In this document: positions 55,543 to 58,185 of the stretch, in pieces
Layout: every line of letters begins with the position of its first letter
How positions within the stretch are numbered: the stretch's first letter is position 1
NCBI GenBank assembly: GCA_964016885.1
Contig: OZ024743.1
Coordinates: 226,114,001-226,178,000 of the forward strand
Direction of reading: 5' to 3'
DNA from: Eledone cirrhosa
Lineage: Eukaryota
Length of the DNA: 64,000 nt
Made by a program: the position numbers and the translations under genes
The notes under the pieces: model-generated
The model's input: only the letters and a program-made list of their open reading frames with translations
Told to the model about the DNA's origin: nothing
Databases searched by the model: none

Positions 55543-55581
<39 letters not shown>

Positions 55582-55741
55582 TAGAATTGGAGCTCTGAAA
55601 TAGCAATATATATATGGATGTATATATAATGTATTTTGCAATACACTTTATGCTTAATTAAAAGCATTTTGAAGACCGTAAGCTATTGTTTTAAAGTAGT
55701 GACAAATTCACTTACTTTGATCTCAGCAAACAGGGGAGATA

Positions 55742-55785
55742 AGCCGACAAGTCTTGTTTCGCTTTGGTTGAAGCTTATCAAGGCT
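55742..55785 (-). ncRNA. Hammerhead ribozyme, family F
   Basis: Reverse complement of 56198-56241. Confidence 0.78.
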
Positions 55786-56197
55786 AACTACCCCTCCTGT
55801 CTACCGAGATCACTGATGTTATATTCTTATAGAAATCTAGTAAATAATCAGGAGCTGATTATGCAGAGCGGTTGTTGGTCAGGCAGAAATTATAAATTAC
55901 CAAAGCGAAACAAGACTTGTCGGCTTATCTCCCCTGTTTGCTGAGATCAAAGTAAGTGAATTTGTCACTACTTTAAAACAATAGCTAACGGTATTCAAAA
56001 TGCTTTTAATTAAGCATAAAGTGTATTGCAAAATACATTATATATACATCCATATATATATTGCTATTTCAGAGCTCCACTTCTAATTTTTAATTTCTGC
56101 CTGACCAATAACCGCTCTGCATAATCAGCTCCTGATTATTTACTAGATTTCTATAAGAATATAACATCAGTGATCTCGGTAGACAGGAGGGGTAGTT

Positions 56198-56241
56198 AGC
56201 CTTGATAAGCTTCAACCAAAGCGAAACAAGACTTGTCGGCT
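56198..56241 (+). ncRNA. Hammerhead ribozyme, family F (U3:A8 core)
   Basis: AGCC TTGATAA GCTT caacca AAGC GAAA CAAG a CTTG TC GGCT. Confidence 0.8.
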
Positions 56242-56513
56242 TATCTCCCCTGTTTGCTGAGATCAAAGTAAGTGAATTTGTCACTACTTTAAAGCAATAG
56301 CTTACGGTCTTCAAAATGCTTTTAATTAAGCATAAAGTGTATTGCAAAATACATTATATATACATCCATATATATATTGCTATTTCAGAGCTCCAATTCT
56401 AATTTTTAATTTCTGCCTGACCAACAACCGCTCTGCATAATCAGCTCCTGATTATTTACTAGATTTCTATAAGAATATAACATCAGTAATCTCGGTAGAC
56501 AGGAGGGGTAGTT

Positions 56514-56557
56514 AGCCTTGATAAGCTTCAACCAAAGCGAAACAAGACTTGTCGGCT
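56514..56557 (+). ncRNA. Hammerhead ribozyme, family F
   Basis: Identical motif 316 nt downstream of 56198. Confidence 0.8.
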
Positions 56558-56917
56558 TATCTCCCCTGTTTGCTGAGATCAAAGTAAGTGAATTTGTCAC
56601 TACTTTAAAACAATAGCTTACGGTCTTCAAAATGCTTTTAATTAAGCATAAAATGTATTGCAAAATACATTATATATACATCCATATATATATATATAAA
56701 TAGAGAGAGAGAAAGAGGGAGTTGATATATATAAAAAATAGTAAAAAATAAAAATAAAACAGTAGACAATGCTAAAGGGATTTTCTCTCAGAAGAACATC
56801 AAAACATTTAATTTAATTAGAAAATAGGAAATCCCGAATTATTTTTACCGGTTTCTGCTTGTACGATTTTTCAGGGAGAAAATCCCTTTACCAATTTCTA
56901 CTGTCTTTTTCCTTTTT

Positions 56918-57508: not shown

Positions 57509-58185
57509 TTATTTAGGACTGACGATTGCGAAAATAAGTAGTCAATTCCAAAATAGAGTTCATAAGTTTTATCAAGGCCATGTTACTGTCCTGCTACCCT
57601 GGAGGTTTAGCTGTATGTTTACGCAGTAATTAGACTTTAAGAAAAGTACAAATGGTATATATGTATACATCTATATATAGAAAATATCTCTAGGCGTGAA
57701 AAAGGAAAAAGAAAAACAGTGCTCAATCAGGGATGAGAGCTGAATATATTATTTATTTATGTTCATACATGTAACAAAAAACGCTACTTCAGATTTCAAA
57801 CCCAATATTGTTCATAACTTCAGACTGTGAGAAGGATGAAATCCATCTTGATTTAGATATATATATATATATAAATCAGGATGGATTTAGTTTGAAACCG
57901 GTTAGACCATTACTTAACAGAGTACTCAATACTTGGGGTAGTAGAGTATGTTTATATTATAAAGAGTCGGGACCTCGACGGTTGAGCTCCTACCGTTTCA
58001 ACAGTTTGTTCCAGAACTCGTTGTTGAATTGGCAGGAGCTCAGCTGTCCAGGTCCCGACTGTTTATAATATATATATCATTGTAAGAACCAATTTATTCT
58101 TGAATCCCTAGATATATGATGGGAAAGTTACTTATATTACAAAGTCCTTCCAAATTCTTGATTATTTACAAAATTCTTTGATAAT

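What the first reader, a model, noticed from the sequence alone, without database searches (positions are those of the whole stretch)
55579..56688. Family F: very young 316 nt ribozyme unit, tandem plus inverted
Seen: four near-identical copies (one inverted, one partial, two nearly full) with GUC sites 316 nt apart. The layout combines the tandem form of animal non-LTR retrozymes with the 5' inversion of Penelope insertions. Inference: rolling reverse transcription of a 316 nt circular RNA by a Penelope RT. The repeated 85-aa ORF is antisense to the ribozyme and probably incidental.
Basis: partly seen in the sequence, partly recalled or inferred. Interest (0 to 1): 0.76.

Follow-up and report, generated by a model that had tools for sequence, protein, structure and literature searches.

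The report
Ribozyme retroelement copied from both sides
This is one of hundreds of scattered copies of a 316-base, non-coding repeat carrying a hammerhead ribozyme motif; its two back-to-back arms repeat a single sequence variant and almost always end at two fixed points 26 bases apart, as would be expected if a Penelope-type enzyme copied one small RNA circle round and round from both nicked DNA strands, a mechanism proposed before but not shown.

Summary
In detail: an inverted arm (1.02 units) joined head-to-head to a tandem arm (2.52 units) of a 316-nt unit, inside (TA)n. Each unit carries a minimal type I hammerhead with the U3-A8 core; compensatory changes support the fold. The family is dispersed (1,911 exact tail matches; 455 tail/(TA)n junctions). 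Outer ends are not permuted: 85 of 103 clean two-arm insertions end once at unit position 294 and once near 320 (one 320/320 pair, no 294/294 pair), the Penelope 'tail'. Both arms carry the same subfamily variant (within-locus divergence about 2%, between loci 4.4%). A much younger 310-nt sister family shows this cleanly: 21 variants fixed in all passes, none partly shared, in 14 loci. So a monomer is likely re-amplified at insertion, most simply by rolling reverse transcription of a circle primed twice. Not shown: RNA, cleavage, circles, the partner enzyme (not found). 'Very young' overstates it; the window copy is mid-aged, and long arrays also grew at DNA level. Verdict: new member of a known kind (animal non-LTR retrozyme / non-autonomous Penelope-like element), with unusually good genomic evidence on an open mechanism.

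The parts
55545..55577 (.). (TA)n target, left remnant
55578..55899 (-). Arm B: 1.02 units (unit 1 to 316+6), ends at the tail site
55580..55605 (-). 26-nt tail (unit 295-320), present at this end only; inferred segment between the two reverse-transcription starts
   Evidence: comparison with PMC11167929
55740..55790 (-). Minimal type I hammerhead, U3-A8 core at 55781-55775, GUC at 55748-55746
55899..55899 (.). Head-to-head junction of the two arms, 1-nt overlap
55899..56693 (+). Arm A: 2.52 units (132-316, 1-316, 1-294), ends at unit 294 in the internal TA tract
55907..55921 (+). 3' half of a truncated hammerhead (GAAA to GUC)
   Evidence: direct reading
56171..56265 (+). Long stem (unit 88-110 with 160-182) that extends stem I and carries the ribozyme; family variants keep pairing
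56193..56243 (+). Minimal type I hammerhead: core 56202-56208, stem II, palindromic stem III, GUC 56235-56237
56300..56470 (+). Block most conserved with sister families (around both end sites and just past the tail); likely the enzyme recognition region
   Evidence: conservation; function inferred
56509..56559 (+). Second tandem hammerhead: core 56518-56524, GUC 56551-56553
56684..56699 (+). End site A: internal TA tract running into the right (TA)n remnant
56090..56353 (-). Incidental antisense open frame (87 aa; repeats at 56406-56669 minus and within 55630-55944 plus)

Best explanation
This is an insertion of a dispersed non-coding 316-nt hammerhead repeat with Penelope-type ends, likely made when a Penelope-like enzyme nicked both strands of a (TA)n target and used both nicks to copy, likely round and round, one monomeric RNA that is most likely a circle. 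Shown: the anatomy, the family, the fixed pair of end sites, one variant per insertion, constraint on the ribozyme fold. Inferred: a tandem copy is transcribed; two adjacent ribozymes pair through the palindromic stem III and cut at GUC, probably with protein help; the monomer is ligated; the enzyme binds the conserved block about 140-165 nt downstream of the cut and starts one cDNA at unit 320 (1-3 nt of homology to the target) and the other at unit 294 (the target TA repeat annealing to the internal AU tract); each cDNA runs a variable distance past the cut site and the two are joined head-to-head by microhomology. Some arrays later grew by DNA-level duplication.
For: Dispersal: 1,911 exact tail 25-mers and 455 exact tail/(TA)n junctions, reversed-pattern controls 0. 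End rule: 48 of 60 clean two-arm loci pair 294 with about 320, none 294/294 or 320/320, 12 have one irregular end (93 loci); held-out set picked by the 320 junction: 37 of 43, one 320/320, five irregular (60 loci); 11 of 11 two-arm sister loci pair 281 (one 268) with 305-312. A Poseidon enzyme starts at two internal sites that bound the tail and extends both target strands in vitro, and is predicted to be a dimer (PMC11167929). One template: divergence 1.79-2.09% in all four within-locus classes against 4.44% between loci; cross-arm agreement at family polymorphisms e.g. 184 of 184, 129 of 129, 97 of 97 where chance gives 0.56-0.62. Sister family: 135 passes in 14 loci, 9 haplotypes, 21 variants fixed in every pass of their locus, 0 partly shared, 9 singletons in 37,595 bases. 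201 of 245 arms cross the cut site at least once, 58 at least twice. Priming by annealing at site A: target-like bases replace the unit's at 283-284 in 21 of 106 terminal A units, 0 of 169 internal units, 1 of 137 last B units; sister 8 of 11 against 0 of 120. Ribozyme: compensatory swap in stem II in 23 of 133 loci and in stem III in 12 of 136; U3-A8 in 130 of 132; 24 doubly changed cells against 7.3 in shuffles; relatives use C3-G8; double hammerhead 11 kcal/mol better than two singles.
Against: No RNA-level evidence was obtained; cleavage and circles are untested. No autonomous partner sharing the conserved block was found. The hammerhead is not the predicted ground state: monomer -35.9 against -43.6 kcal/mol, dimer -120.2 against -129.1. 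In vitro the Poseidon enzyme mainly used uncleaved RNA and started without homology to the target; 8 of 9 Xenopus retrozyme dimers did not cleave in vitro. In family F itself, rare alleles are partly shared among passes in 31 cases against 3 shared by all and 314 singletons, and arrays of 26 and about 150 units show higher-order patterns, so DNA-level duplication or conversion also shapes arrays. Run-off at the cut site is weak: inner ends of B arms at 150-160 in 7 of 74, then 3 of 51 in the held-out set (not significant); at 150-176 13 of 74 (window chosen after seeing the data) and 9 of 51 (P 0.03). Only 4 pairs change on both sides, and 50 of 500 shuffles reach that. Repeated end-to-start jumps on a linear monomer would leave the same genomic pattern.
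Confidence: 0.65

Rival explanations
1. The same enzyme copies an uncleaved linear multimer transcribed from a genomic tandem array; no circle is needed, and arrays are re-lengthened and homogenised at DNA level.
For: Unprocessed RNA was the main substrate for the Poseidon enzyme in vitro. Long arrays that could act as sources exist. A few rare alleles sit in the same pass of both arms (6 of 31 partly shared cases). The ribozyme is predicted to be sequestered.
Against: In the young sister family 21 variants of nested haplotypes are fixed across all passes with none partly shared and almost no later mutation: each needs a monomer bottleneck followed by re-amplification, with no time for DNA-level homogenisation. 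In-register passes of the two arms are not significantly closer than out-of-register ones (1.84 against 2.14%, interval includes 0). The long F arrays are internally heterogeneous. The ribozyme fold is kept by compensatory changes.
Confidence: 0.17
2. The inverted structure arises by self-priming or fold-back (possibly on an antisense template), and the two fixed ends are endonuclease cuts that resolve a DNA intermediate, not two priming sites.
For: Proposed for Penelope elements from junction palindromes (PMC3846280); the tail has been ascribed to endonuclease resolution (PMC8557442). Staggered nicks could give two end positions; shared variants in both arms follow naturally.
Against: Copying the second arm from the first arm's cDNA is geometrically impossible in 13 of 48 two-arm loci. 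47 of 60 junctions show overlaps of only 0-5 nt. Target-like bases overwrite the unit at site A. In vitro the tail maps between two reverse-transcription starts.
Confidence: 0.12
3. The unit is only the terminal repeat of a longer autonomous Penelope-like element, inserted as truncated single copies, with all tandem copies made later by DNA slippage or unequal crossover.
For: DNA-level duplications are visible in some loci (adjacent passes sharing several rare alleles; long arrays). A satellite-type route is discussed for retrozymes. An earlier agent reached this reading for a look-alike in another genome (e1-7908855).
Against: In the 153 loci mapped, sequence past the tail runs back into the same 316-nt unit, and no reading frame continues an arm. 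Adjacent tandem passes are as diverged as opposite arms (1.87% against 1.79-2.09%), so most passes date from the insertion. Sister insertions carry up to 17 near-identical passes over both arms.
Confidence: 0.06

Closest known systems
Animal non-LTR retrozymes (Cervera and de la Pena 2020, PMC7229834; Li et al. 2026, bioRxiv 10.64898/2026.07.22.740005)
   Same: Non-coding tandem unit of 150-450 nt, low GC (34.5%), type I hammerhead in each unit, dispersed copies, proposed circular intermediate and Penelope helper.
   Different: Minimal Penelope-type ribozyme with U3-A8 core rather than the canonical loop-loop type; most insertions are head-to-head two-arm structures with a fixed pair of ends (a find for 'inverted' in PMC7229834 gave 0 occurrences); expression not tested here.
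Endonuclease-positive Penelope-like elements and their pseudo-LTRs (Poseidon of Anolis, PMC11167929; Naiad/Hydra survey, PMC8557442; Cercyon min-HHR, PMC4209133)
   Same: Tandem plus inverted insertions, tail at one end only, two end sites downstream of a minimal hammerhead, (TA)n targets, U3-A8 core variant known from Cercyon.
   Different: No ORF; the unit closes on itself at 316 nt; tail 26 nt rather than 30-40; site A shows signs of target annealing, whereas the Poseidon start was reported as non-homologous.
Non-autonomous Chlamys elements such as MRC1 (PMC8557442, passage)
   Same: Non-autonomous Penelope-like elements with multicopy head-to-tail insertions.
   Different: Those resemble an autonomous family at the 3' end and most Chlamys lack canonical hammerheads; here no partner was found and the ribozyme is conserved.
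L1 twin priming (recalled, not from a call)
   Same: Two target strands prime on one RNA and give an inverted arm joined by microhomology.
   Different: In L1 the second start is variable and lies where the first cDNA stops; here both starts are fixed, 26 nt apart, and both arms cover the same sequence repeatedly.

Membership tests
Minimal type I hammerhead | Conserved core with 3-8 pair, GAAA, UH site, three stems | tested here: met
   (U3-A8 in 130 of 132 loci; Rfam HH9 E 0.0012 but below gathering score)
Minimal type I hammerhead | Covariation in stems; palindromic stem III | tested here: met
   self-duplex -8.7 kcal/mol, no stable hairpin. Few independent events (4 pairs)
Minimal type I hammerhead | Self-cleavage | not testable with these tools
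   fold predicted to be sequestered
Animal non-LTR retrozyme | At least two consecutive tandem units of 150-450 nt with complete type I hammerheads, low GC | tested here: met
Animal non-LTR retrozyme | No coding capacity | tested here: met
Animal non-LTR retrozyme | Dispersed copies | tested here: met
Animal non-LTR retrozyme | Expressed as linear and circular monomer RNA | not testable with these tools
   no run on record as RNA was offered
Animal non-LTR retrozyme | Target-site duplication | tested here: inconclusive
   15 of 91 loci against 5-13 in 30 shuffles; (TA)n targets hide it
Non-autonomous Penelope-like element | Tandem/inverted insertions with a tail at one end, microsatellite target | tested here: met
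Non-autonomous Penelope-like element | Sequence similarity to the terminal repeat of an autonomous RT/GIY-YIG element | tested here: inconclusive
   none found in the loci held (about 1.5 Mb, including 30 of 150 listed GIY-YIG matches and 20 of 150 listed matches to the young 758-aa family); the genome could not be searched exhaustively
Autonomous Penelope-like element | RT plus GIY-YIG ORF | tested here: not met

The most novel reading that the evidence does not exclude
A dimeric Penelope-type reverse transcriptase rolls twice on one ribozyme-made RNA circle, the two active sites starting 26 nt apart from opposite target strands (one by annealing TA repeats to an AU tract), so that the tandem repeats, the head-to-head inversion and the one-sided tail of Penelope-like elements are all products of one reaction; this clan of circles has persisted as an independent, viroid-sized parasite lineage with over 16,000 unit copies in one genome.
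Probability: 0.45. Interest if true: 0.78.

Novelty: new member of a known kind. Interest (0 to 1): 0.56.

Why it matters
How Penelope-like elements form their tandem and inverted insertions and their one-sided tail is stated as open in the papers read (PMC8557442, PMC11167929), and the circle-template model for animal retrozymes is a proposal (PMC4209133, PMC7229834; Li et al. 2026 favour cross-mobilisation but say the mechanism is unresolved and discuss DNA-level array growth). This family and its very young sister give a natural experiment: hundreds to thousands of insertions in which both arms and all passes can be haplotyped. The 294/320 rule and the one-variant-per-insertion pattern make the circle and double-priming models directly testable with a 310-316-nt RNA. 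The element class itself is known, so the gain is mechanistic evidence, not a new kind of system.

Tried and rejected
Expression: no RNA holder listed; laying four runs showed related copies in two further coded organisms but says nothing on RNA, and the repeat flanks prevented an empty-site test. Whole-window Rfam scan was swamped by microRNA models on TA repeats; only 150 of 365 rows were shown and none lay in the finding; the targeted scan found the hammerhead. Partner search: a profile of 12 clan segments was run over GIY-YIG loci, long-ORF regions and the young 758-aa family; N-terminal upstream regions were read; a distant relative was followed and proved to be another short non-coding unit. 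All negative. The young 758-aa element ends at two sites 73 nt apart and lacks the conserved block, so it was not accepted as the partner, although its ribozyme core and stem II resemble the sister's. Target-site duplication test inconclusive. Run-off at the cut site not confirmed for the narrow window in the held-out set. Arm lengths are uncorrelated (rho 0.13, P 0.38). Permuted outer ends: rejected. Coding role of the antisense frame: rejected. L013 may be a second haplotype of L023 (same junction); flank comparison was unclear; it was kept in the count and dropped's duplication test. Earlier findings by place and by sequence: nothing.

Full report
Observation. The region 55578-56693 is a head-to-head pair of arms of a 316-nt unit set in a (TA)n tract. 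With unit position 1 at window 56084, the minus-strand arm covers unit 1 to 316+6 and the plus-strand arm covers 132-316, 1-316 and 1-294; they overlap by one base at 55899. Three complete minimal type I hammerheads are present (cores at 55781 minus, 56202 and 56518), with GUC sites 316 nt apart, plus a half ribozyme in the truncated pass. Rfam HH9 matches all three at E 0.0012, below its curated score. The copies differ at 20 of 1,242 compared bases, rank 40 of 60 loci, so the insertion is mid-aged within its family.

Ribozyme. The core is U3-A8 instead of C3-G8, a variant reported for Cercyon elements of Schistosoma (PMC4209133, parts 1-2 of 4 read); a sister family and another relative have C3-G8. 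Across loci, stem II swaps U-A for A-U in 23 of 133, stem III swaps in 12 of 136, and the variants in a 22-pair extension of stem I keep pairing. On 54 distinct rows, one per haplotype (56 of the 134 loci that cover the region), 97.7% of cells pair and 24 change on both sides against 7.3 in shuffles, but only 4 pairs are involved and 50 of 500 shuffles reach that number. Stem III is a palindrome that forms a -8.7 kcal/mol self-duplex but no hairpin; a double hammerhead scores -120.2 against -109.3 for two singles, yet an inactive fold is lower still (-129.1; monomer -43.6 against -35.9). Cleavage would therefore likely need dimerisation and help; the Anolis Poseidon ribozyme cleaved only with protein (PMC11167929, parts 1-2 of 4 read).

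Family. The genome (3.0 Gb, animal) holds 1,911 exact matches to a 25-nt piece of the tail and 455 exact tail/(TA)n junctions, controls 0; I infer roughly 800-1,000 loci because 28 of the first 51 loci on contig 1 carry the exact junction. Identity to the majority unit runs from 89 to 99% in a positional sample; 56 haplotypes occur among 116 fully covered loci. Related copies lie in runs of two other coded organisms that were laid. A clan of related non-coding units shares the block around the two end sites; one 310/311-nt sister has 14,803 exact tail matches.

End rule. I mapped 153 loci: 45 distinct loci from the best matches to the window unit and to its ribozyme pattern, 48 positional loci from contig 1, and 60 held-out loci chosen by the tail junction; duplicate fetches were dropped and stray segments trimmed in four loci. 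Outer ends fall at unit 294 (site A, end of an internal TA tract) or 320, less often 322-327 (site B). In the first 93 loci, 60 were clean two-arm insertions: 48 A+B, none A+A or B+B, 12 with one irregular end; 28 were single arms and 5 complex. In the held-out 60, 43 were clean two-arm: 37 A+B, 1 B+B, 5 B+irregular; 8 single, 9 complex; A+A cannot appear in that sample. All 11 two-arm sister loci pair 281 (one 268) with 305-312 (I picked multi-unit loci from the first 100 listed matches and left single matches out). Inner ends are spread over the unit, and 47 of 60 junctions overlap by 0-5 nt. This is the Penelope tail, described as often present at one end only (PMC8557442, passages; PMC3846280, passages) and mapped in vitro to the stretch between two reverse-transcription starts of an enzyme that extends both target strands. 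At site A, target-like bases replace the unit's own in 21 of 106 terminal units, 0 of 169 internal units and 1 of 137 last units of B arms; in the sister 8 of 11 against 0 of 120. I infer that the nicked TA repeat anneals there.

One template per insertion. Pairwise divergence is 1.79% between in-register passes of opposite arms, 2.09% out of register, 1.87% between adjacent passes, 1.93% between distant passes, and 4.44% between loci; paired differences include zero. At 28 family polymorphisms the two arms nearly always agree (184 of 184, 129 of 129, 97 of 97 at three sites; the weakest are 121 of 135, 80 of 88 and 103 of 113). 201 of 245 arms cross the cut site, 58 more than once, so a once-copied cleaved linear monomer cannot be the template. 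Against a pure model: rare alleles are partly shared in 31 cases, fully shared in 3 and single in 314, several in adjacent passes, and two long arrays (26 units; about 150 units over some 50 kb, end not reached) show higher-order repeats. DNA-level duplication or conversion has thus acted on older copies. The young sister removes this noise: 135 passes in 14 loci carry 9 haplotypes, with 21 variants fixed in every pass of their locus, none partly shared and 9 singletons in 37,595 bases, positions 266-282 other than 269 left out. Fixing each new variant across up to 15 passes on both arms requires re-amplification from one monomer; rolling reverse transcription on a circle is the simplest way, repeated end-to-start jumps on a linear monomer the equivalent alternative. 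Fold-back copying of the first cDNA is geometrically excluded in 13 of 48 loci.

What was not found. No RNA run was offered. No autonomous element with the conserved block was found in about 1.5 Mb of held loci; the search was a sample, not the genome. The genome has many GIY-YIG elements and a young family with open 758-aa frames, one truncated copy of which lies in this window, but its two ends are 73 nt apart and it lacks the block. Run-off at the cut site is suggestive at most. Target duplications are inconclusive. The antisense frame is open in 59 of 120 loci, broken in the sister and without a Pfam match at cut-off.

Comparison. It works like, and meets the sequence criteria of, animal non-LTR retrozymes (PMC7229834, passages and Discussion read; bioRxiv 10.64898/2026.07.22.740005, parts 1-3 of 5 read), which both papers tie to Penelope-like elements; circle-templated more-than-unit copying was proposed in 2014 and 2020. 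It is not an autonomous element. In six searches (listings only, apart from the six papers named) I saw no count of paired end sites or of per-insertion haplotypes for retrozymes, and no description of this family; Repbase and Dfam were not searchable, supplements were not read (those of PMC8557442 list families by species; those of the preprint are closed), and subscription journals are mostly missing, so the family may be catalogued. L1 twin priming is recalled, not from a call. An earlier agent's reading of a look-alike elsewhere as a plain Penelope tail (e1-7908855) does not fit here, because the unit closes on itself and no ORF-linked copy appeared.

Verdict. Element identity about 0.95; monomer re-amplification at insertion about 0.8; circle with double priming as stated about 0.65. 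Interest 0.56.

Noticed in passing
L023:2190-3316, L047, L170-L181, L192-L201: Very young 310/311-nt sister retrozyme with a C3-G8 hammerhead, 14,803 exact tail matches, two-arm insertions of up to 17 near-identical passes; better material than family F for the mechanism. One copy sits in the end of a family F insertion.
   Followed up: yes
window 5264-10090 (+): 5'-truncated copy of a young Penelope-like element (family with open 758-aa frames, many copies 98-100% identical over the 208 aa searched; clade name Hydra-like is my recall, untested). Long microsatellite-rich 3' region, hammerhead core at 9957-9963, two end sites 73 nt apart. Its core and stem II resemble the sister retrozyme's.
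   Followed up: partly
L182-L187 (G000:C2:207.686-207.738 Mb) and L188 (C1:293.635-293.643 Mb): Family F arms expanded into satellite-like arrays (about 150 and 26 units) with higher-order repeats; the larger still keeps its short inverted arm.
   Followed up: partly
window 56268-56273 and 56383-56388 (unit 185-190 and 300-305): A donor-like GTRAGT motif (302 of about 315 passes, the common variant keeps the consensus) and an acceptor-like TTTCAG flank site A; several relatives keep both. Could be a retained intron as in Penelope terminal repeats; untested.
   Followed up: partly
window 14506, 18343, 18462, 30832, 31164, 37643, 54662: Other minimal hammerheads of different families, several in inverted pairs in TA repeats.
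   Followed up: no
L292-L316: Older relative of the clan (about 345-nt unit) with a U3-A8-like core, a long palindromic stem III and two end sites 34 nt apart.
   Followed up: partly
window 34437-35606: 81-nt tandem array (14 copies) with frames open for over 400 codons on both strands.
   Followed up: no
window 57948-58077: 56-nt inverted repeat with an 18-nt spacer in TA context; similar palindromic pieces recur in many loci.
   Followed up: no
L108:184-1237 (-): 351-aa open frame with SH3/SH2-like motifs (Nck-like, name recalled) about 500 nt from a family F insertion.
   Followed up: no
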